NCBI GenBank assembly: GCA_001799675.1
Contig: MGTX01000001.1
Span: forward strand, 1,602-65,601
DNA: 64,000 nt
Reading direction: 5' to 3'
Source of the DNA: Elusimicrobia bacterium GWA2_66_18
GTDB lineage: Bacteria > Elusimicrobiota > Elusimicrobia > UBA1565 > UBA9628
Shown: piece after piece, positions 1 to 20,758 of the stretch
Layout: the number at the start of each line of letters is the position of its first letter
How positions within the stretch are numbered: position 1 is the stretch's first letter
The notes under the pieces: model-generated
Seen by the model: only the letters and a program-made list of their open reading frames with translations
Database searches by the model: none
Told to the model about the DNA's origin: nothing
Made by a program: the position numbers and the translations under genes

Positions 1-746
1 AGAAGGGCAAGACCTACCGTTACTACAAGTGCCTGGCGCAGAGAAACGGGATCTCCGCGCGGTGCTCGTTCGGGAGCGTCAACGCCGATAAGGTCGAGGA
101 ATACTTGATCGAGAAATTGGCGGCGGTGGGTTGGGACCGGGCGTTTTTGGAGAGGGTGACCCGTAAGGCCGATGTTCTTTCCAAGGCCTCGATCCGGCCG
201 CTCGAAAAGGAGAAGCGTGAGGTTGATGACCGGCTCCAGGGCGTTCTGCGGGAAATTCAGGGGCTCTTAAATCTGGCCAAGCAGGGCGGGGCGTCGCGTA
301 ATGCCGCCGAGGAAGTCGGCCGATTGGAAGAGACGAAGCGAACGCTCGAGGCCCACTCGGTCCAACTGGAGGCGCAGCTGGCCTTCAGGAAGCGCGTGGT
401 TTACGACGTTGATGTCGTGCAGGGGGCGCTACAGCGCTTCGCCCGATTCTTCAACAGGATTCCGCTATCGCTACAGGTTCAGATTATCGGGCTGCTGATT
501 CGGGAAGTGATGGTCCGCAAGGACGGGATCGATGTGAAGACGCACGAAATCGCCATCTCCGATTTCCAGCGGGCCCTCGGAGGAAAAAAAGCGGTCGCAT
601 TTGGCCCCCATCAGACATTAAGACGGCGGGAGGCAAATGCGACCGATACTTCAACCCATCCGCAGCCTGTCAAGGGAACAGCGGTGGTTAATTTGCGGCT
701 AAACTGGCGGGGCCGACGGGATTTGAACCCGCGATCTCCGCCTTGA
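1..746 (+). CDS. Large serine recombinase, C-terminal part (5' end lies outside the window; true stop uncertain)
   Basis: In-frame translation from window start gives KGKTYRYYKC...ISARCSF (zinc-ribbon-like region of large serine recombinases), then a coiled-coil and C-terminal tail. The ORF-track start at 105 is a TTG. The 3' end runs into the minus-strand tRNA-Asp. A poly-A run near 590 may hide a frameshift. Confidence 0.6.
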   Translation, partial: KGKTYRYYKCLAQRNGISARCSFGSVNADKVEEYLIEKLAAVGWDRAFLERVTRKADVLSKASIRPLEKEKREVDDRLQGVLREIQGLLNLAKQGGASRNAAEEVGRLEETKRTLEAHSVQLEAQLAFRKRVVYDVDVVQGALQRFARFFNRIPLSLQVQIIGLLIREVMVRKDGIDVKTHEIAISDFQRALGGKKAVAFGPHQTLRRREANATDTSTHPQPVKGTAVVNLRLNWRGRRDLNPRSPP

Positions 747-782
747 CAGGGCGGCGTGTTGGGCCAGCTACACCACGACCCC
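705..782 (-). tRNA. tRNA-Asp (anticodon GTC)
   Basis: The reverse complement folds as a cloverleaf: acceptor GGGGTCG/CGGCCCC, anticodon stem CCGCC/GGCGG with loop CTGTCAA (GTC), T-arm GCGGG-TTCAAAT-CCCGT, CCA encoded. Confidence 0.85.
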
Positions 783-1321
783 AGCCATGTTGAGTATATC
801 ACATTGTCGCGGGAATTTTCTTTCCGCCGATTCAACGGGTGCACCCACTGAAAGTGGCGCGCCTGACCGGGCTTGGCCTGCTTGCTTGATATAGCGCGGT
901 GGGTGGTGGCGGGGATTGGATCGCTCCGGGTGCGAGCGGCACCATAGGCGCCAGGCGAGCAGAGGAGTTCAATAATTTTTTTCACCATTCGCAATGTGTT
1001 TCCCTGGGAGGTGACGGTGGGATTTGAACTCCGGCACATTGAAATCGGTGGTTTTTTGCCGGCAGGAGGAGATAGCCTCAGTTACCACCAACTCGCCGTT
1101 GGTGATGCGTCCCCAAGTGAGAAACCAGTTCAGTGAAAAAGCAGGGAAAAGATATGCTTTTTCTGGCGCTGGAACAGGTTCGGGGAACTGGGCGGTGGTT
1201 TTGTGCCACTGTTGTTCCAGCCAGTTTATCGATAATTCTGCTACCACTGTTCGCTGACCGTGTTTCCCCCGGTTCCGGACAGTGGTCTTTTTTTGACTCC
1301 TCGGGCACTTTACGAATCGCT

Positions 1322-1903
1322 TTACGTTGACTTTACGCATTCTTCCCTCCCTAGTGTCTGCGCCAGAAGCTCCTTCAATCCCGTGACGGATAGCTCGTTG
1401 AAGTCCAGCTCCACTCGGTCTTTCCACCCGCGAATCCGACGGAGCACCCGAACAACCTTCATCCGCTGCTCCAAAGGCAGGCGCTTGGCGATTCGGCCGA
1501 TCCGCCTGAATACTTTTTGGGCCGAGTCCACGTCATAGCCAGCGTTCTCCAGGCGCCTGATTTCTTCCTCCAGCTTCGTCGTGTGGGACGAGAGCTTCCG
1601 CTCGATCAACTCCAGCCTGCGAATCTCCTCTTCAAGCGCTGCCGCCTTGCAACCTTCCCAGGCTTTCCGGAGATTGCCGAGCTCTTTTTGCGTTTTTGCT
1701 AGGTTTAGATCGAATTATTTTTTCTCCCCGACAAGACCGGCGATATTTCCTCTTGAATGCTTTTCCGTCTCCAGGACAAGACGCTCCAGGAAAGATTTAT
1801 CCCAACCGATCTTTTCCAGTTTTTGGAGAACCATCTCCTCGAGCGGTTCGGCCACGATACTGACGAAGTCGCAGGAAACGGCCGCCCCGTCGACCATGGA
1901 CAT
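1322..1903 (-). pseudogene. Serine recombinase remnant (C-terminal fragment split into two ORFs, catalytic N-domain absent)
   Basis: ORF 1715-1903 (..IGWDKSFLERLVLETEK..) and ORF 1322-1609 (..YDVDSAQKVFRRIGRIAKRLPLEQRMKVVRVLRRI..) are collinear with the C-terminal region of the plus-strand recombinase at the window start (VGWDRAFLERV.., ..DVDVVQGALQRFARFFNRIPLSLQVQIIGLLIREV). They are interrupted by stops, and there is no room for the N-terminal catalytic domain before tRNA-Val. Confidence 0.5.
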
Positions 1904-2132
1904 GCATCGGCGCGCTCGTGCCGGGCCTACTCGGCCATGAGCTCTTGCGCTTTATTGAAGGCGTCGAACTCGATGATAGGCTGATGCTGCCCCGGATACA
2001 CAGGATCGTGTTATAATGGGCCAAGGAGAATTCTCTATCGTAAAATATGGTCTAAGAAACTTCATTCTACAACTGGCGAAGGATTCCCTGTCGTTTTTTC
2101 CCGGACAGAAGTGATTTGATATCATAACAAAC

Positions 2133-2204
2133 GGGCCGTTAGCTCAGCGGTAGAGCGCCCGCCTTACACGCGGGATGCCGCAGGTTCGATCCCTGCACGG
2201 CCCA
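2133..2204 (+). tRNA. tRNA-Val (anticodon TAC)
   Basis: Acceptor GGGCCGT/ACGGCCC, anticodon stem CCCGC/GCGGG with loop CTTACAC, T-arm GCAGG-TTCGATC-CCTGC. CCA is not encoded. Confidence 0.85.
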
Positions 2205-2212
2205 CGCTTTTC

Positions 2213-4408
2213 ATGGCCTTCGAACAGTATCCAGCCGCGCGGCCGCTCGCCCCGGATGTTTGGGGAGGCATGGCCGCTGCCCTGGTGGCCATTCCTTCCG
2301 CAGTCGCCTTCGGCGTGGCCATACTCTCGCCGCTTGGGCCCGAGGCCGCGGCGCGCGGCGCCGCGGCGGGCCTGGCGGGCGCCGCGGCCCTGGGCCTCAT
2401 CACGCCGCTGACGCGCGGTAATCCCATCCTGATCTCGGCGCCGAGTGCCCCCGCCGCGGCGGTCATGGGCGCGCTCGCCGCTGAGTTGGCGGCGGCCGGC
2501 GACGCCGCGGGCCCGGGGAGGTTGTTTCTCGTGGCCCTCATCGCCGGGGTCCTCCAGATCCTCTTCGCGCTCTCGCGGGGAGGGCGGCTCATGAAGTACA
2601 TCCCTTATCCCGTGGTGAGCGGCTACCTCACGGGCGTGGGTGGTCTCATCCTGCTTAAGCAGTTGCCGTCCTTCCTGGGGCTGCCTCAGGGCTCGCGCCT
2701 GGTCCAAGTGTTGGAGCCTTCCCTGTGGCGCGCCGAGGCGCTGGGCGTCGGGTTCACGGCGGTCCTAGGCATGGCCCTCGCCCCGCGCCTGACGAAGCGC
2801 GTACCGGCTACCGTGGCGGGACTGACCGCGGGGATTCTCGCACACGTCCTCTTCGGCCTGCGGCGGCCGGAGATTTTGCAGGTCTGCGGCAACCCGCTCG
2901 TGGTCGGGGCCTTCACGGGGGCTCCGCTCCTGTCCGGCGCCGTGGAGCTCCTGCGGCAGGCCCTCTCGTTCGGGGCCGCGGACTGGAGTGCTGCGGCCAC
3001 GCCCGCTGCGACGCTCGCGATGCTCCTCTCCGTGGACGCGCTCAAGACCTGCGTCGTGACCGACGCGATGACCGGCTCGCGCCACGACGCAGATCGCGTC
3101 CTTGCGGGGCAGGGGGTAGGGAACCTCGTCACGGCCTTCCTGGGAGGCGTGCCCGGCTCGGGAACCATGGGGCCGACTTTGGTCAACGTCACGAGCGGCG
3201 GGACCACGCTTCGTTCGTCCTTGGCTGCGGGCGTCTTCGCCGCCGCGGCGCTTGTGGCCGGCCCCTGGTTTTTGCCGCGACTGCCGCTGGCCGCCCTCTC
3301 CGGCTTGATGGTCGTGGTCGCGGCCCGGATGGTGGACTGGGAGAGCCTGAGCCTCCTGCGCCGGGAGACCACGCGCTTCGATTTCGCGGTGGTCGCGGCG
3401 GTGGTCGTGACGGCCATGGGCATCGGGCTCGTCCAGGCGGCGGGCGTCGGCGTCGGCCTCTCCATACTCCTCTTCTTACGCGAGCAGACGCAGGGGGCGG
3501 TGGTGAGGCGCCTGGGCAACATCGCGCGGTGGCGTTCCAAGCAGGTCCGTCCGCCCGAGGAGAGCGCGGTCCTGGAGGCCGAGGGCGATAAGGTCGTGGT
3601 CGCGGAACTGCAGGGGCCACTCTTCTTTGGCACGGCCGACCAGTTCCTGCGCGAGTTGGAGAGTTGCCTGGCCCACGCCCGCTGGGCCGTGCTCGACTTG
3701 AGCCGCGTGCGCTCCGTGGACTTCACTGCGGCGCATCTCCTCGAGCGCGTGGCCCGCACCCTCGCCGCGCGCGGGGGACGCCTGGTTCTCTGCCGCGTGC
3801 CCGCGGCCTCGCCGACCGGTCAGGACCTCTCGCGCTACCTACGTCATCTGGGCCTGACGGCTGAGGGAGGCTCAGCCCTGATGATGGGCTCCCACGACGA
3901 GGGGCTGGAGTGGGCCGAGGAGCGCCTCCTCGAGGGCCGCCGGACTTCCCGCGCCCCGGACCGCCCCCTAGAGCTCGCCGAGTTTCCGCTCCTGCGCCGG
4001 CGCTCCGCGGACACGCTGGCCGCGCTCACGGCGGCTACCCGGGAGGTCAAGATCCCGGAGGACGGCAGCGTGTTCCGTGCCGGAGACGGGGGAGACGATC
4101 TCTTTCTCGTGCGCCGCGGGCAGGTGCGCGTGGTCCTGCCTCTGGCGGGCCAGGCTGGCCACCACCTGGCGACCTTCGGCCCGGGCGAATCCTTCGGGGA
4201 GGTCGCGTTCCTCGACGGGGGCGTGCGCACGGCCGACGCCGTGGCGCGCGGGGAATGCGAGCTCTACGCCGTTTCCCGCGCGCGCTTTGAGGAGGCGGCC
4301 GACATCCACCCCAAGCTGGCGCGTCAGGTTTTCAGCGACTTGGCGCGCCAGTTGGCCCTGAGGTTGAGGCAGGCCGACGCGGATCTGGGCGCTCTGAAGG
4401 AAAGCTAA
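2213..4408 (+). CDS. SulP-family anion transporter with C-terminal STAS and cyclic-nucleotide-binding (CAP_ED) domains
   Basis: The multi-TM N-terminal region has SulP hallmarks (..YIPYPVVSGYLTGVGGLILLKQLP..). A STAS-like region follows, then a CNB motif FGEVAFLDGGVRTADAVA. The gene starts 8 nt after tRNA-Val. Confidence 0.75.
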   Translation: MAFEQYPAARPLAPDVWGGMAAALVAIPSAVAFGVAILSPLGPEAAARGAAAGLAGAAALGLITPLTRGNPILISAPSAPAAAVMGALAAELAAAGDAAGPGRLFLVALIAGVLQILFALSRGGRLMKYIPYPVVSGYLTGVGGLILLKQLPSFLGLPQGSRLVQVLEPSLWRAEALGVGFTAVLGMALAPRLTKRVPATVAGLTAGILAHVLFGLRRPEILQVCGNPLVVGAFTGAPLLSGAVELLRQALSFGAADWSAAATPAATLAMLLSVDALKTCVVTDAMTGSRHDADRVLAGQGVGNLVTAFLGGVPGSGTMGPTLVNVTSGGTTLRSSLAAGVFAAAALVAGPWFLPRLPLAALSGLMVVVAARMVDWESLSLLRRETTRFDFAVVAAVVVTAMGIGLVQAAGVGVGLSILLFLREQTQGAVVRRLGNIARWRSKQVRPPEESAVLEAEGDKVVVAELQGPLFFGTADQFLRELESCLAHARWAVLDLSRVRSVDFTAAHLLERVARTLAARGGRLVLCRVPAASPTGQDLSRYLRHLGLTAEGGSALMMGSHDEGLEWAEERLLEGRRTSRAPDRPLELAEFPLLRRRSADTLAALTAATREVKIPEDGSVFRAGDGGDDLFLVRRGQVRVVLPLAGQAGHHLATFGPGESFGEVAFLDGGVRTADAVARGECELYAVSRARFEEAADIHPKLARQVFSDLARQLALRLRQADADLGALKES

Positions 4409-4438
4409 GGACGGAGGATCGAGGGGGCCGCAGCGACG

Positions 4439-4693
4439 CTACTGACCCTCGGGCTTGGCAGGGGGCGGGAGGGTCTTGCTGAGTGCCTCGAGGCGGGCTT
4501 TGGTTTCCTCCAGGTTCTTCTCGACGGAGGCGAGGAACTTCTTGGCGTAATGGCCCTGGATGTCGTCGGGCTGGTAGTAGGGGATCTCGAACTTCAGGCT
4601 CTCGCGCGTCTGTTCGAGACCCGCGACGAGGCGTTCGAGATACTCGGCCCGTTTGGCCGGATCCTGAGGCTCCATAAAATGATTATTCCACAT
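4439..4693 (-). CDS. Hypothetical small protein (the ORF-track N-terminus is IS-derived; a real start is probably an internal Met)
   Basis: The ORF 4439-4873 crosses the left IS boundary at 4721. Only the part outside the IS (..MWNNHFMEPQDPAKRAEYLERL..KTLPPPAKPEGQ) can be native. No recognisable family. Confidence 0.25.
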   Translation of the reverse strand: MWNNHFMEPQDPAKRAEYLERLVAGLEQTRESLKFEIPYYQPDDIQGHYAKKFLASVEKNLEETKARLEALSKTLPPPAKPEGQ

Positions 4694-4720
4694 CCAGGCG
4701 ATAACGTCAATCGACCAGGG

Positions 4721-6356
4721 CCCCCCCAATCCTCGGACAAGCCGTCCCGCTAAAAAATAAAATACCTCGCGTCCCGTCGGCAGGGAACCATCGGTGAAAA
4801 GCGTCAACTTTTCACCCGCGAGGTGAAAACATGATAGCGCAGCTTGGGTGCGGCTGGAAAGTCGAAAAAACAACCGAGAAGATGACGTCGTTCGCCGGCC
4901 TTCTGCTGCTGACGGAACTAGCCCACCGAAGCAAACTGATCCGAGGCCTGGACGCCGTGCCTGGGATATGGGAGCGCCAGGGAAAATATCGAACTTCGGA
5001 TTACGTGATGAGTCTGGCGTTGACGCTGATCGCTGGAGGCGAGAGCTTAGAGGACACGCGCCTTTTGCGCGAAGATGGCGGGCTGCAAGGCTGGCTGTGG
5101 GAAAACCTTTCCGCGCCCAACAGCCTGGGCGATTTCCTCAGGCGTCATGGCCAGCGCACAATCAGTCGCATGGGGCACGTCAACGCACGCCAAGTCCGGC
5201 GCTTGCTGGCCAAACAACGGCACGGCCACCTGACATTGGACATAGATTCCAGCCTTGTCGAAGCCGACAAGAAAGAGGCGCAGAAGACCTATCAGGGATT
5301 TGACGGCTACAATCCCCTGCTGGCCTGGCTCGATGAGCCGAACGTATTTCTATCGGGCGTATTTCGTCCCGGGAACAGTTCGCCGCAGTCGCACCTGAGA
5401 AGCTTGGTGGCGCAATGTCGGCGCCTGCTGCCGCGAGGCGTGAAACTACGTCTAAGGTCGGATAGCGCTGGCTACAACGCCGAGGTGCTCCGTTACTGCG
5501 ACAAGTATGGCATCGAGTTTTCGATCACGGCGGACCTGGACGTGGCGGTGATGGCGAGCATCGAGGCGATCCCCGATGAGAAATGGCAGCTGGTTGTCCG
5601 GGGCGAGGAGAGCTTCCTTTTGGCGGAGACGGTCCACGTCATGGGGCATCGCTCCAAGCACGAGCGCCTCCCTGCCTTTCGTTTGATCGTGACCAAGAAG
5701 CTGAGCGGGCAACTCGAACTATTTAAGGACCCTGTCAAGCACCGGGCGATCATTGCCGAACTACCCGAGAGCATGGGCGCGCTGGAAGTGCTGGATCATC
5801 ACAACGACCGCGGGCGCATGGAGAAGGCGATCGGCGAGCTCAAGGAAGGCTTCGGACTTGAGCGGCTTCCCTGCGGACAGTTGATGGCGAACGCGGCGTT
5901 TTTGCAAGTGTGCCTGATCGCCTACAACTTGGTGCAGACGTTCAAGTGCGTCGCGCTACCGAAGGGTTGGGAGAAGTTCGAAGTCAAGAATTTACGCTTC
6001 AGGTTGCTGTGCCGCGCGGCCAGGCTTGTGCGCCACGCAGGCTACGTCGTCACCAAGCTGCGGGATTTCGCCTTCTTCGATGTGTTCGAGCAAGCGCGCT
6101 GGGCCGTGATGAGTCCGACGCTCGCGCCCGCCTGTGAATAATCGTCCGCGCTAAGAGACGCGCCTGTGGACAGCGGGGACAACTACACCTGGACAGCCTG
6201 GCGTCATCCCGAATAACGTCCGGCCGGGTGTGTCGCAGGCCGACCTTGGCCAATCGGGAGGCCGAGACCCAAGCGGCCGCCCTGGCGGACCGCGTCCCGG
6301 ACGGATGTTATTCGGGATGCCGCCCGGGTTCAGAGCTTAGCCGAGGATTGGGGGGG
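4721..6356 (+). mobile_element. Insertion sequence, IS1380/IS4-like (about 1.64 kb) with perfect 16-bp terminal inverted repeats
   Basis: IRL CCCCCCCAATCCTCGG at 4721-4736 and its exact reverse complement CCGAGGATTGGGGGGG at 6341-6356 bracket a single DDE transposase ORF. No target-site duplication is visible in the flanks. Confidence 0.75.
4831..6141 (+). CDS. DDE transposase (IS1380/IS4-superfamily-like)
   Basis: 436 aa. Lies exactly between the 16-bp IRs. Contains conserved transposase-like blocks (..HLTLDIDSSLVEADKKEAQKTYQGFDGYNPL..). Confidence 0.7.
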   Translation: MIAQLGCGWKVEKTTEKMTSFAGLLLLTELAHRSKLIRGLDAVPGIWERQGKYRTSDYVMSLALTLIAGGESLEDTRLLREDGGLQGWLWENLSAPNSLGDFLRRHGQRTISRMGHVNARQVRRLLAKQRHGHLTLDIDSSLVEADKKEAQKTYQGFDGYNPLLAWLDEPNVFLSGVFRPGNSSPQSHLRSLVAQCRRLLPRGVKLRLRSDSAGYNAEVLRYCDKYGIEFSITADLDVAVMASIEAIPDEKWQLVVRGEESFLLAETVHVMGHRSKHERLPAFRLIVTKKLSGQLELFKDPVKHRAIIAELPESMGALEVLDHHNDRGRMEKAIGELKEGFGLERLPCGQLMANAAFLQVCLIAYNLVQTFKCVALPKGWEKFEVKNLRFRLLCRAARLVRHAGYVVTKLRDFAFFDVFEQARWAVMSPTLAPACE

Positions 6357-6358
6357 TA

Positions 6359-6715
6359 TTAGAGATAAGGGAGGTAATGGATGTCGCGCAGGTCGTAGGT
6401 CGCGCCCAGGTTGGCGGTGCGCTCGGCCTGCTTGAGAGCCTTGCGCAGGACGGAGACCTTCAGGGTCTTGTCGATGCGGATCGTCACAACCGCCAGCCCC
6501 TTGTCGAAGTCCACCGCGGCCTTCTCGACTTCGGGGATCGTCGACCATTGCGCGGAGATCGCGCGGGCGCAGATCGTGGACAGCATTCCCTGGATCTCTA
6601 TGGAATACCGGCCTGGGGGCAGTTTCGCATAGTCTTTGACGTCCGGGGCCGCGCCGACGGGTGCTGCAAGACAGGCGAACAACGCGAGGGCCGTGAGGTT
6701 CATCCCGCCTAGCAT
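6359..6715 (-). CDS. Secreted HMA-like (heavy-metal-associated fold, degenerate GMxxxxC) protein, hypothetical
   Basis: N-terminal signal peptide (MLGGMNLTALALFACLAAPVGAAP). The core ..YSIEIQGMLSTICARAI..VDFDKGLAVVTI.. resembles an HMA ferredoxin-like fold with a single Cys. The stop codon lies 2 nt from the IS right end. Confidence 0.4.
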   Translation of the reverse strand: MLGGMNLTALALFACLAAPVGAAPDVKDYAKLPPGRYSIEIQGMLSTICARAISAQWSTIPEVEKAAVDFDKGLAVVTIRIDKTLKVSVLRKALKQAERTANLGATYDLRDIHYLPYL

Positions 6716-19129: not shown

Positions 19130-20758
19130 ATGCCCGAAACTAAGGCGGGGGGCTTCGCCCCTGTGCGCGTTGCGCGCGCGTCGGCGCTCGTTGAGGCCGT
19201 CGCGCGCGCGTGTTTTTCTTTGGGGGCCCTTCTGGGGGCCCTCTGCTCACCAGTTTCGGCCCAGAGCGGCGGCCAGCCGGGCCAGTTCCTCAGCTATGGC
19301 GTCGGCGGCCGGGCGTTGGCCATGGGCGGCGCTTATTACGGTATCTCGGACGACGCTTCCGCCGCTTACTGGAACCCGGCCGGCCTGGCCCAGGTCCAGC
19401 GCAAGGAACTGACCACGATGCAGGCCACCCTCTTCCAGCAGACCAAGCTCACCTACTTAAGCTACGCCCACCCCACCAAGGGCGGATCCACCTTCGCCTT
19501 AAGCATGACCCAACTGGCCAACACCGGATTCGAGAAGGTGGACGTGATCTACAACCCGAACACGAACGAGCCCAAGACGGTCACCGCGAACGGATCCTTC
19601 AACGACGCTCAGCAGGCCATGTCCCTATCTTGGGCCAAGGGCGTGACCGAGACCATGCTCTTCGGCATGAGCGTCAAGCAGGTGACGCGCAAGCTGGCTG
19701 GTTCCTCGGACAACTTCAAGTCCCTGGACCTGGGCACGATGAAGACGATGGGGGCCTCCTATCGCCTCGGCCTCGGCATTCAGAACGTGTTCGCCATGCG
19801 CACCGGCGACACCGACGACAAGCTCCCCGTGACGATCAAGCTGGGCAATTCCCTGCGCCTCTTCAAGGAGCGTCTGACTCTCTCCGCCGATATCAATAAG
19901 GTCCTCAACGGCGATGTGGACATGCGCTTCGGCGGCGAGTACTGGATCGCGCGCTGGTTTGCCTTCCGTTTCGGATTGCTCGGCCTGCCCCGGATACAGG
20001 AGACCGACTTCGGCTTCGGGCTGAACTTCAAGAGCTTCAGCCTAGACATCGCGCAGGGCATACATGACCTCGGATCCAGCACGCGATTCTCCCTGTCCAT
20101 CCGCTTCGGCCAGTCGCGCACCGACCGCTCGACCGGCCAGGTCAAGAACTTCATCAAGCAGGGCATGGAGGCGTTCCAGGAAGGCAATTTCGCGCTTGCG
20201 GCGCAGAAGTTCAACCAGGCCCAGGATGCGGCTCCAGGAAATAAGCAGGTCGCGACCATGATCGCGCGCCTAAACAACGTGACGGGCTTTCTTCCCCAGG
20301 CGACCGGCGGCGAGGAGTCCCAGACCTTCGTGCGCAAAGGCGCGATCGCCTACGTGGACGGCCGCGACCTCAAGGTCGCGGTCAACTCCCTGCGTTACGC
20401 CTTCAATAAGAATCCTCGCGACGAGAAGCTCCTGGGCCTGCTGAATATGATCGAGAAGGAGGCCGGCGTGGCCGACGTCACGCGCCGTCTCGAGGGACCG
20501 GAGCAGTTCACCTGGATCGACCAGAAGGTCTTCGACGCTCGCCAGGCGGTCTACGACGGCCACTACGATTCCGCCGTGCGTCGCTCCCAGGACGTCCTGG
20601 ACCTTGAACCCAACAACGTGACCGCTCTTGAGATCATGGGCTCGGCCTTCTTCCTAATGGAGCAGAAGGACAAGGCCATGGCGGTCTGGCGGCGCGTGCT
20701 GGAGCTGGACCCCAGCAATCGCGCGGTGCGCGAGTTCATGCAGTCGGTCAGCCCGTGA
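19130..20758 (+). CDS. FadL/PorV-like outer-membrane beta-barrel domain fused to C-terminal TPR repeats
   Basis: Signal-like ..CFSLGALLGALCSPVSAQS. Hatch motif GGRALAMGGAYYGISDDASAAYWNPAGLA (compare FadL G-RA-SGE-AIADDAS--NPA-L). C-terminal barrel-like ..FSLSIRF. Then TPR-like helices to the end. Confidence 0.55.
   Translation: MPETKAGGFAPVRVARASALVEAVARACFSLGALLGALCSPVSAQSGGQPGQFLSYGVGGRALAMGGAYYGISDDASAAYWNPAGLAQVQRKELTTMQATLFQQTKLTYLSYAHPTKGGSTFALSMTQLANTGFEKVDVIYNPNTNEPKTVTANGSFNDAQQAMSLSWAKGVTETMLFGMSVKQVTRKLAGSSDNFKSLDLGTMKTMGASYRLGLGIQNVFAMRTGDTDDKLPVTIKLGNSLRLFKERLTLSADINKVLNGDVDMRFGGEYWIARWFAFRFGLLGLPRIQETDFGFGLNFKSFSLDIAQGIHDLGSSTRFSLSIRFGQSRTDRSTGQVKNFIKQGMEAFQEGNFALAAQKFNQAQDAAPGNKQVATMIARLNNVTGFLPQATGGEESQTFVRKGAIAYVDGRDLKVAVNSLRYAFNKNPRDEKLLGLLNMIEKEAGVADVTRRLEGPEQFTWIDQKVFDARQAVYDGHYDSAVRRSQDVLDLEPNNVTALEIMGSAFFLMEQKDKAMAVWRRVLELDPSNRAVREFMQSVSP

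What the first reader, a model, noticed from the sequence alone, without database searches (positions are those of the whole stretch)
1..2205. Integration hotspot: serine recombinase abutting the 3' end of tRNA-Asp, plus a decayed second recombinase between tRNA-Asp and tRNA-Val
The window opens in the C-terminal half of a large serine recombinase. Its ORF runs into the 3' end of the minus-strand tRNA-Asp(GTC). This is the geometry expected for an integrative element (to the left, outside the window) inserted at the tRNA 3' end.

Between the two tRNAs, the opposite strand holds collinear but stop-interrupted pieces of another serine-recombinase C-terminus (IGWDKSFLERL..; ..VDSAQKVFRRIGRIAKRLPLEQRMKVVRVL..). 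The catalytic domain is gone, so this is a fossil of an earlier integration.

Serine (rather than tyrosine) recombinases targeting tRNA genes are comparatively unusual.
Basis: partly seen in the sequence, partly recalled or inferred. Interest (0 to 1): 0.55.

Follow-up and report, generated by a model that had tools for sequence, protein, structure and literature searches.

The report
Serine-integrase prophage at tRNA-Asp end
In an uncultured groundwater Elusimicrobiota genome, a phage-like element sits at the last eight bases of the only tRNA-Asp gene, apparently placed there by a large serine recombinase whose attachment site lies inside its own gene, so insertion swaps the enzyme's tail; a decayed second copy lies beside it.

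Summary
The window opens in codon 335 of a 581-aa large serine recombinase (LSR) with Resolvase, Recombinase and Zn_ribbon_recom domains. A phage terminase fragment lies upstream. The ORF overlaps 42 nt of the minus-strand tRNA-Asp(GTC) and stops at a TGA over the anticodon. The Asp-Val spacer holds a real LSR pseudogene (tblastn E 2e-29).

New here: comparison with relatives puts the element/host junction at AAAC|TGGCGGGG, the last 8 nt of the tRNA. A 95%-identical LSR on another Elusimicrobia contig has no tRNA. There the ORF runs through the same motif into a conserved ~95-aa extension (665 aa in all). The motif is flanked by inverted 9-bp arms, as in a serine-integrase attP. So attP seems to lie inside the LSR gene, and integration replaces the extension with a 14-aa tail read antisense through the tRNA. 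This parallels tyrosine-integrase phage Mx8 (IntP/IntX).

At least six LSR lineages show the same junction. One genome has a 58-kb prophage bounded as the model predicts. Tyrosine-integrase elements and two other LSR types also sit at this tRNA, so it is a hotspot.

The fossil is in the unsplit, attP-like form on the 5' side of the tRNA. Its origin is unresolved. All evidence is comparative, from MAGs.

The parts
1..746 (+). C-terminal 247 codons of the 581-aa large serine recombinase. The gene starts 1000 nt upstream of the window, at G000:C1:602. The last 14 codons (705-746) are read antisense through tRNA-Asp.
681..704 (+). Element-side half-site (P arm) of the hybrid attachment site. It begins with the outer motif GCGGTGGTT and ends with ...CTAAAC.
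   Evidence: Nearly identical in G000, G009 and L056, while the DNA to its right differs. It is the inverted partner of AACCACCGC in the unsplit form.
705..712 (.). Common core TGGCGGGG, the complement of the tRNA's 3' CCCCGCCA. The predicted crossover is at the central CG (tRNA C72/G73).
705..782 (-). tRNA-Asp(GTC), intact and the only copy in the assembly.
744..746 (+). TGA stop of the prophage-form LSR, overlapping the anticodon (745-747).
835..965 (.). Dispersed short repeat with at least 8 further copies in G000, several at contig ends. It is the left edge of the ~1.3-kb block that relatives lack between the two tRNAs.
972..1223 (-). C-terminal extension module of the fossil LSR. It is an open frame within ORF 969-1427 and carries the family motif W..RI.NGE.VV and KFKS.
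1216..1249 (-). Fossil's own attP-like site: mutated core TGGCTGGA (1223-1216) and P arm (1249-1224), unsplit.
1340..1918 (-). Fossil LSR body (equivalent to residues ~340-544), with an in-frame TAA at 1715-1717 and a frameshift near 1330 relative to the extension.
   Evidence: intact relative P0004
1933..1998 (-). Frame-shifted fossil piece matching the end of the Recombinase domain (residues 273-294). Everything N-terminal to it is gone.
2003..2114 (.). 112-nt sequence that is multi-copy in related genomes G019 and G009 but single in G000. It is the right edge of the extra block.
2133..2205 (+). tRNA-Val(TAC), divergent from tRNA-Asp. The two are only ~70-110 nt apart in same-genus relatives.

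Best explanation
A temperate phage-like element is integrated at the extreme 3' end of the single tRNA-Asp(GTC) gene by its own large serine recombinase. The attachment site on the element (attP, about 56 bp) has inverted outer arms GCGGTGGTT / AACCACCGC. Its symmetry axis falls in TGG-CG-GGG, which lies inside the recombinase ORF at the codons for N-W-R-G.

In the unintegrated form the gene encodes about 620-665 aa, including a conserved ~95-aa C-terminal extension. A small conserved gene (the ORF160 family) follows, and its start overlaps the LSR stop.

Recombination with the identical 8-14 nt at the tRNA end restores the tRNA and splits the gene. The prophage copy keeps all canonical domains but ends in 14 codons read antisense through the tRNA, stopping at a TGA over the anticodon. 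The extension and ORF160 move to the far end of the prophage. Excision would rebuild the long gene.

Shown by comparison: the junction position, the two gene states, and the far-end extension in one 58-kb prophage. Inferred: that this LSR catalyses the reaction, the exact crossover dinucleotide, and any effect of the tail swap on activity or directionality.

The spacer copy is a dead paralogue: 5'-truncated, with one stop and at least two frameshifts. It is still in the unsplit configuration.
For: 1. LSR identity and a neighbouring terminase.
2. G000 and G009 have 97%-identical LSRs, while their host genes are only 67-76% identical. They match up to ...GCTAAAC with 1 mismatch in 70 nt. From nt 9 of the tRNA onward they differ by host-specific, compensatory acceptor-stem changes, so the mobile/host boundary is within the last 8 nt of the tRNA.
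3. L056 (LSR 95% identical) is identical through ...AAACTGGCGGGG and then continues as a 665-aa ORF instead of a tRNA. L059 (658 aa), G030 (617 aa) and P0001 (658 aa) do the same.
4. The same split junction and the same TGA stop occur in G009, G011, G025, L057, L062 and G041:C81, and in IMG/VR provirus L086, whose LSRs are 56-64% identical to the window's (97% for G009).
5. Dyad symmetry has its axis after TGGC in L056, L059 and L082 and in G011's proximal P arm paired with its distal P' arm, with 9 contiguous complementary outer bases. The arms co-vary between lineages.
6. G011 has a 58-kb prophage with repressor, helicase, primase, terminase and tail genes. It lies between LSR-core-tRNA at 31.6 kb and core-extension-ORF160 at 89.2-89.95 kb, in the same orientation.
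7. Orphan flank-core-extension junctions exist in G019:C347 and G002:C355.
8. The extension is protein-coding. dN/dS is 0.13, with 6/6/20 differences by codon position, between L059 and L082. The motif is conserved across 25 database relatives.
Against: - The far end of G000's own element is not in the assembly. C1 breaks in the terminase and no other extension copy exists in G000.
- G009, whose LSR is 97% identical, has no extension anywhere on its 95-kb contig.
- Several unsplit LSR genes sit beside host-like genes on chromosomal contigs. G030 is on a 346-kb contig 3 kb from tRNA-Asp, and G041:C39 is next to metal-resistance genes. This needs tandem arrays or another route of insertion.
- No circular contig was found.
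- Overall dyad symmetry is modest: 11-14 of 30 positions against a null of 7.9 +/- 2.5.
- In two IMG/VR proviruses the ORF160 homologue is at the far end, but no extension was detected beside it.
- All data come from MAGs or UViGs. There is no read-level evidence of excision.
Confidence: 0.68

Rival explanations
1. Secondary deletion. The element integrates elsewhere near tRNA-Asp with the long LSR gene intact, as in G030. The LSR-tRNA fusions are later deletions between a pseudo-site inside the LSR gene and the identical 8-14 nt at the tRNA end.
For: In G030 the intact 617-aa gene lies 3 kb from tRNA-Asp. Direct repeats of CGCCAGTTTTCTGGCGA sit at the tRNA end and in the gene, and recombination between them would give exactly the G000 form. 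Unsplit genes occur on chromosomal contigs.
Against: No alternative attP or att repeat was found. The site inside the gene has attP-like inverted arms. G011's 58-kb prophage has the extension and ORF160 at its far end in direct orientation, which a local deletion does not predict. The G030 layout is also what a decayed tandem array would leave, since only about 17 nt of a P arm remain at the tRNA.
Confidence: 0.15
2. The attachment site overlaps a dispensable 3' tail only by compaction. The extension has no role in recombination, and the tail swap is neutral.
For: The prophage form keeps the catalytic, recombinase, zinc-ribbon and coiled-coil regions. AlphaFold gives the extension pLDDT below 50 apart from one short hairpin. 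It has no Pfam hit.
Against: The extension is under purifying selection in one lineage (dN/dS 0.13). It has invariant W, I, G and E positions across distant relatives. The downstream ORF160 start overlaps the long gene's stop in every unsplit copy.
Confidence: 0.35
3. Another recombinase inserted the element. The candidate is the XerC-like tyrosine recombinase in the G009 and G041:C81 elements, and the LSR has a different job such as resolution or inversion.
For: A tyrosine recombinase gene lies about 10 kb from the LSR in G009 and G041:C81. Tyrosine-integrase elements do use this tRNA (G014, G022).
Against: The tyrosine-integrase elements leave a 48-49-nt tRNA repeat reaching the anticodon stem. 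The LSR elements share only the last 8 nt. The junction is inside the LSR ORF, at the same nucleotide in LSR lineages only 56-64% identical to the window's.
Confidence: 0.05
4. Origin of the spacer fossil. It is the middle junction of a former tandem array (LSR-N of one element joined at the core to the extension of the next), later moved or inverted. The alternative is a passenger fragment brought by other mobile DNA.
For: The fossil keeps its P arm, core and extension contiguous. A tandem array is the simplest way to hold an unsplit gene in a chromosome. The block is bounded by two dispersed repeats. A homologous fossil in G037, from another family of the same order, is 73-78% identical in DNA and is cut by IS4-type and ISAzo13-type insertions.
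Against: The fossil lies on the 5' side of tRNA-Asp, where no 3'-end integration can place it. The two bounding repeats are unrelated to each other. No other Asp-Val spacer examined holds an LSR remnant.
Confidence: 0.3

Closest known systems
Phage-type large serine recombinases (phiC31, Bxb1, A118, TP901-1 integrases)
   Same: Same three-domain architecture by HMM. Short attachment sites with partial dyad symmetry and a very short common core. Prophage context with terminase, repressor, primase and tail genes.
   Different: Known examples mostly target protein-coding genes, and their attP lies outside int. Here the target is the 3' end of a tRNA gene, and attP appears to lie about 95 codons before the end of the integrase ORF.
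Myxophage Mx8 integrase IntP/IntX (tyrosine recombinase)
   Same: attP lies inside the integrase coding sequence, and integration creates a recombinant gene with a new 3' end (review PMC6070905). From memory, not checked here: the Mx8 target also involves tRNA-Asp genes, and about 112 residues are replaced by 13.
   Different: Mx8 Int is a tyrosine recombinase with a different mechanism and different site architecture. Here the enzyme is a serine recombinase.
tRNA-targeting genomic islands with tyrosine integrases (Islander class)
   Same: The integrase gene sits next to the 3' end of a tRNA, the tRNA is kept intact after insertion, and one tRNA is used repeatedly as a hotspot. G014 and G022 carry such elements at the same tRNA.
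   Different: Those leave a displaced tRNA fragment of tens of nt (48-49 nt in G014). The LSR elements share only 8-14 nt. [quoted passage not shown]
Tycheposons of Prochlorococcus
   Same: These integrative elements at tRNA-associated islands include a minority (27 of 937) that carry a large serine recombinase (bioRxiv 10.1101/2020.12.28.424599).
   Different: They come from a different phylum. That text does not describe an attP inside the recombinase gene, and I did not check their exact junctions.

Membership tests
Large serine recombinase (serine integrase) | N-terminal resolvase-type catalytic domain with a nucleophilic serine | tested here: met
   PF00239 at 4e-30, residues 24-175. A YTRKS motif is near residue 30.
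Large serine recombinase (serine integrase) | Recombinase domain plus a zinc-ribbon domain | tested here: met
   PF07508 at 5e-14 and PF13408 at 1e-11; phrog_95 integrase at 1e-105.
Large serine recombinase (serine integrase) | Coiled-coil motif inserted in the zinc-ribbon domain | not tested
   Residues ~385-470 look helical and heptad-like by eye. No coiled-coil predictor was run.
Large serine recombinase (serine integrase) | Short (~40-60 bp) att sites with imperfect dyad symmetry around a 2-bp crossover | tested here: inconclusive
   The axis falls after TGGC in four lineages, with 9-bp complementary outer arms. Total symmetry is only 11-14 of 30, against a null of 7.9 +/- 2.5. The crossover was not observed.
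Large serine recombinase (serine integrase) | Catalyses attP x attB integration | not testable with these tools
   Needs a recombination assay.
tRNA-targeting integrative element (Islander signature) | Integrase-bearing element between an intact tRNA gene and a displaced fragment of that tRNA | tested here: not met
   G000 has no second copy of the tRNA-Asp 3' part. In G011 only the 9-nt core recurs at the far end. G014's tyrosine-integrase element does show the signature.
Mx8-type integrase remodelling | attP inside the integrase ORF, so that integration changes the C-terminus | tested here: met
   This rests on comparison only: a 665-aa unsplit gene (L056) against the 581-aa tRNA-fused gene (G000), 95% identical up to the core.
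Mx8-type integrase remodelling | Tyrosine recombinase chemistry | tested here: not met
   The enzyme is a serine recombinase.
Mx8-type integrase remodelling | The prophage form has altered activity or specificity | not testable with these tools
   Needs biochemistry or genetics.

The most novel reading that the evidence does not exclude
Integration reversibly remodels the serine integrase gene. The free element makes a long integrase whose conserved C-terminal extension, with the translationally coupled ORF160 protein, tunes integration. The prophage makes a tail-swapped integrase uncoupled from ORF160. The DNA state of the element would then set the enzyme form and bias direction or stability. 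This would be a serine-recombinase counterpart of Mx8 IntP/IntX, using a tRNA gene's antisense strand to supply the new tail and the stop codon.
Probability: 0.3. Interest if true: 0.75.

Novelty: new variant of a known kind. Interest (0 to 1): 0.6.

Why it matters
Serine integrases are the main enzymes used for programmable large-DNA insertion, and their direction is normally set by separate directionality factors. A natural family whose attachment site sits inside the integrase gene would add a built-in way of coupling the enzyme's form to the integration state.

It would also add tRNA 3' ends to the target range of serine integrases, which a standard resource described as not known to target tRNA genes (PMC4383910).

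The precise, testable attP and attB sequences could be tried directly as a new orthogonal integrase system.

For genome annotation, 'truncated' LSR genes running into tRNAs, and orphan ~100-aa ORFs carrying the W..RI.NGE.VV motif, are two halves of one gene and mark prophage ends.

Tried and rejected
- Repeat of the tRNA-Asp 3' end in G000: none beyond chance 13-15-mers. The C13 hit is tRNA-Glu.
- Rest of G000's element: the terminase N-terminus is absent from the assembly. C11 and C9, which match DNA beyond the element in G009, carry fatty-acid and metal-resistance genes plus only a 52-69-aa ORF160 fragment. There is no extension and no core.
- Rfam on 1-6500: only the two tRNAs. The conserved 230-nt 'segment' is therefore read as coding, not RNA.
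- The tRNA-like motif at 1007-1029 has no parent tRNA in G000. It encodes the family's KFKS motif.
- Circularity of G041 contigs C126 and C39: no terminal overlap.
- Sequencing runs: only Logan contigs were available. They show two ~90%-identical LSR variants in the source groundwater sample and many foreign tRNA-Asp flanks, but nothing decisive on attP or attB.
- AlphaFold2 of LSR residues 470-665 with a 16-row alignment: mean pLDDT 53, with the extension below 50 apart from a short hairpin. It was not used for fold search.
- Pfam on the extension and on three ORF160-family proteins: no hits.
- The word-indexed homologue search found only 2 proteins. The exhaustive search found 25, mostly 50-183-aa ORFs.
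- IMG/VR proviruses G042 and G043: ORF160 is at the far end, but no extension was detected next to it.
- The repeats at 835-965 and 2003-2114 are not inverted or direct copies of each other.
- Other Asp-Val spacers (G025, L062, G011, G009, L057) hold no LSR remnant.
Full report
**What is in the window**

ARAGORN places tRNA-Asp(GTC) at 705-782 on the minus strand and tRNA-Val(TAC) at 2133-2205 on the plus strand. Rfam finds nothing else in 1-6500. The open frame 3..746 (+) overlaps the 3' 42 nt of tRNA-Asp. Its TGA at 744-746 covers two bases of the anticodon (745-747).

The window is G000:C1:1602-65601, in a 34-contig, 2.79-Mb assembly that is 94.7% complete. Only 1601 nt lie upstream. They complete the gene (C1:602-2347, 581 aa). 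Before it come a 60-aa ORF and the C-terminus of a terminase large subunit, where the contig ends.

The 581-aa protein scores Pfam Resolvase 4e-30, Recombinase 5e-14 and Zn_ribbon_recom 1e-11, and PHROG integrase phrog_95 1e-105. The upstream fragment scores phrog_38 terminase 2e-10. This is the only tRNA-Asp among 44 tRNAs. G+C is about 0.60 over the element part, 0.50-0.60 in the spacer and 0.70-0.79 in the host gene after tRNA-Val. Record titles of related contigs name Elusimicrobiota MAGs, mostly from groundwater.

**The second recombinase**

tblastn of the intact LSR against the spacer gives 30% identity over 205 aa (E 2e-29) on the minus strand at window 1340-1918, with one in-frame TAA at 1715-1717. 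A frame-shifted piece at 1933-1998 matches residues 273-294. Nothing N-terminal to residue 273 remains.

A database relative (P0004) reads continuously where the fossil changes frame near 1330, so the fossil also carries a frameshift there. It is a pseudogene.

**Where the mobile DNA ends**

G009, from the same genus, has an LSR 97% identical to the window's, in the same position beside tRNA-Asp. Its tRNA-Val is about 90 nt beyond, and its host genes are only 67-76% identical to G000's.

The 70 nt left of the tRNA differ at one position between G000 and G009. The tRNA itself differs at several positions from nt 9 of its 3' end onward, and the acceptor-stem changes are matched on the 5' strand. 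So the tRNA body belongs to each host. The boundary lies in or next to the last 8 nt, at AAAC|TGGCGGGG.

**A second state of the same gene**

Contig JACQPG010000158.1 (locus L056) carries an LSR 95% identical to the window's, and no tRNA. It is identical through ...AAACTGGCGGGG and then diverges completely. There the ORF continues for about 95 more codons, to 665 aa.

The same holds for L059 (61% identical, 658 aa), G030 (57%, 617 aa) and P0001 from a Rhodocyclales MAG (658 aa).

The added part has no Pfam match, but it is conserved. An exhaustive HMMER search finds 25 relatives, and the alignment has invariant W, I, G and E positions in a W..RI.NGE.VV motif. Between L059 and a paralogue (L082), dN/dS is 0.13, with 6/6/20 differences by codon position. 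Orphan or fossil copies give 0.6-1.15.

In every unsplit copy a small conserved gene (ORF160 family, 142-160 aa, no Pfam hit) starts on the LSR stop.

**The site looks like a serine-integrase attP**

In L056 the core is flanked by GCGGTGGTT on the left and AACCACCGC on the right, 56 bp end to end. Scanning all axes, the axis after TGGC gives 9 contiguous complementary outer bases in L056. The same axis scores among the best in L059 and L082 and in G011 when its tRNA-proximal arm is paired with its distal arm. The arm sequences change together between lineages, for example GGTAGTAGAAT with ATTTTACCACC in L059.

Total symmetry is modest, at 11-14 of 30 positions against a null of 7.9 +/- 2.5. 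I therefore treat the crossover, predicted at the CG corresponding to tRNA C72/G73, as an inference.

**Both junctions of integrated elements**

The LSR-core-tRNA junction, always ending at the same anticodon TGA, recurs in G009, G011, G025, L057, L062 and G041:C81, and in IMG/VR provirus L086 (52 kb). These LSRs are 56-64% identical to the window's, apart from G009's at 97%.

G011 has the core followed by an extension and an ORF160 homologue at C110:89.2-89.95 kb. That is 58 kb from the LSR-tRNA junction and in the same orientation. In between lie a CI/LexA-like repressor, helicase, primase, methyltransferase, terminase and tail genes, none with a G000 counterpart except the terminase and the repressor.

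G019:C347 and G002:C355 carry orphan junctions. There the extension is joined at TGGCGGGG to the flank typical of the tyrosine-integrase elements of this tRNA. attP-, attB-, attL- and attR-type sequences are thus all represented, though in different genomes.

**Hotspot**

Among relatives, tRNA-Asp is flanked by the following:
- this LSR family;
- two other LSR types about 31% identical to it (G020 and G004, both confirmed by Pfam);
- tyrosine integrases (G014 and G022; Phage_integrase 9e-32), which leave a 48-49-nt tRNA repeat 17.7 kb away in G014;
- plain terminators and host genes (G006 and G007).

One MAG (G041) holds five paralogues of the family in split, unsplit and broken states.

**What does not fit cleanly**

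- G000's far junction is not assembled.
- G009 has no extension on its 95-kb contig. It has only ORF160 homologues at 90.1 and 95.1-95.5 kb.
- Unsplit genes lie on chromosomal contigs. G030's is 3 kb from tRNA-Asp, where about 17 nt of a P arm remain at the tRNA. G041:C39's is next to genes 82-87% identical to G000 host genes. A tandem array would create such unsplit chimeric genes at its middle junction, but that is an inference.
- Two IMG/VR proviruses have ORF160 at the far end without a detectable extension.
- No circular contig was seen.
- Only Logan contigs of the source runs could be laid. They show two ~90%-identical LSR variants in the sample, which probably explains the contig break, but nothing on excision.

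**The fossil's configuration**

Downstream of the fossil body, on the same strand, lie its own P arm (1249-1224), a mutated core TGGCTGGA (1223-1216) and an open extension (1223-972). The extension is 71-77% identical in protein to L056's. So the fossil is unsplit.

It lies on the 5' side of tRNA-Asp, inside a ~1.3-kb block (about 835-2130) that same-genus relatives lack. The block is bounded by two unrelated dispersed repeats.

A homologous fossil in G037, a different family of the same order, is 73-78% identical in DNA. It is cut by IS4-type and ISAzo13-type insertions. How the G000 copy arrived is unresolved. It is not evidence of an earlier integration into this tRNA's 3' end.

The tRNA-like 11-mer at 1007-1029 is part of the extension's conserved KFKS codons, not a local tRNA duplicate.

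**Comparison with the literature**

- A genomic-island survey finds tyrosine integrases by far the most prevalent at tRNA genes (PMC10484663).
- Tycheposons include 27 of 937 elements with a large serine recombinase (bioRxiv 10.1101/2020.12.28.424599).
- An attP inside the integrase ORF, with a new 3' end after integration, is described for the tyrosine integrase of phage Mx8 (review PMC6070905).
- A phrase search for such an arrangement in serine integrases returned only a synthetic design. That is weak evidence of absence.

**Verdict**

The best reading is an LSR prophage at the last 8 nt of tRNA-Asp, with attP inside the integrase gene, so that integration swaps the enzyme's C-terminus (confidence about 0.68). 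Whether the swap matters functionally is open (about 0.3 for a regulatory role). This is a new variant of a known kind.

Noticed in passing
window 835-965: Short dispersed repeat (~80-130 nt) with at least 8 further copies in G000 (C13, C14, C15, C27, C29, C31 and the end of C1). Several lie at contig ends, and some form inverted pairs (C14:38545-38757). It looks like a REP- or MITE-type element that breaks the assembly.
   Followed up: partly
window 2003-2114: 112-nt sequence directly upstream of tRNA-Val. It is single-copy in G000 but multi-copy and contig-terminal in relatives G019 and G009, and it contains a TATAAT-like box.
   Followed up: partly
window 4721-6356: IS with an intact 436-aa DDE transposase (Pfam DDE_Tnp_1_4, 3e-46) and 22-nt terminal inverted repeats, beside the SulP gene.
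   Followed up: partly
G000:C9:18829-19035 (outside the window): A 52-69-aa fragment of the ORF160-family gene, about 1.2 kb from a CzcA-type efflux gene. In G041:C39 an intact LSR-ORF146 pair lies in the same neighbourhood. This suggests a second, decayed element site near metal-resistance genes.
   Followed up: partly
L043 (G014:C7:90501-110400) 1371-1489 and 19153-19301: The tyrosine-integrase element at tRNA-Asp is flanked by a repeat of the 48-49-nt tRNA 3' part plus at least 70 nt of identical flank. This suggests tandem related elements.
   Followed up: no
L078-L082 (G041 contigs C126, C39, C124, C81, C111): One groundwater Elusimicrobia MAG carries five paralogues of this LSR family. 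Two are unsplit and intact, one is unsplit with a frameshifted extension, one is fused to tRNA-Asp at a contig end, and one is fragmentary.
   Followed up: partly
L090 (IMGVR_UViG_3300010352_002123) last 40 nt; L088/L089/L064: Related LSRs (54-56% identical) run into 3' ends of other tRNA-like sequences (TGGCGCCCTCTACGGGATTC and TGGCGCGGTCAAGGGGATTCGAAC). The clade may have retargeted to other tRNAs.
   Followed up: no
L009 898-1159 and 1858-2209 (G000:C1), runs X2/X3: The source groundwater sample holds two LSR variants about 90% identical at similar depth. This is a likely cause of the contig break in the element.
   Followed up: no
L050 (G037:C76) 1-1400: A homologue of the window's fossil LSR is fused in frame to an IS4-type transposase fragment at its 5' side. 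At its P arm it is cut by an ISAzo13-type IS.
   Followed up: partly
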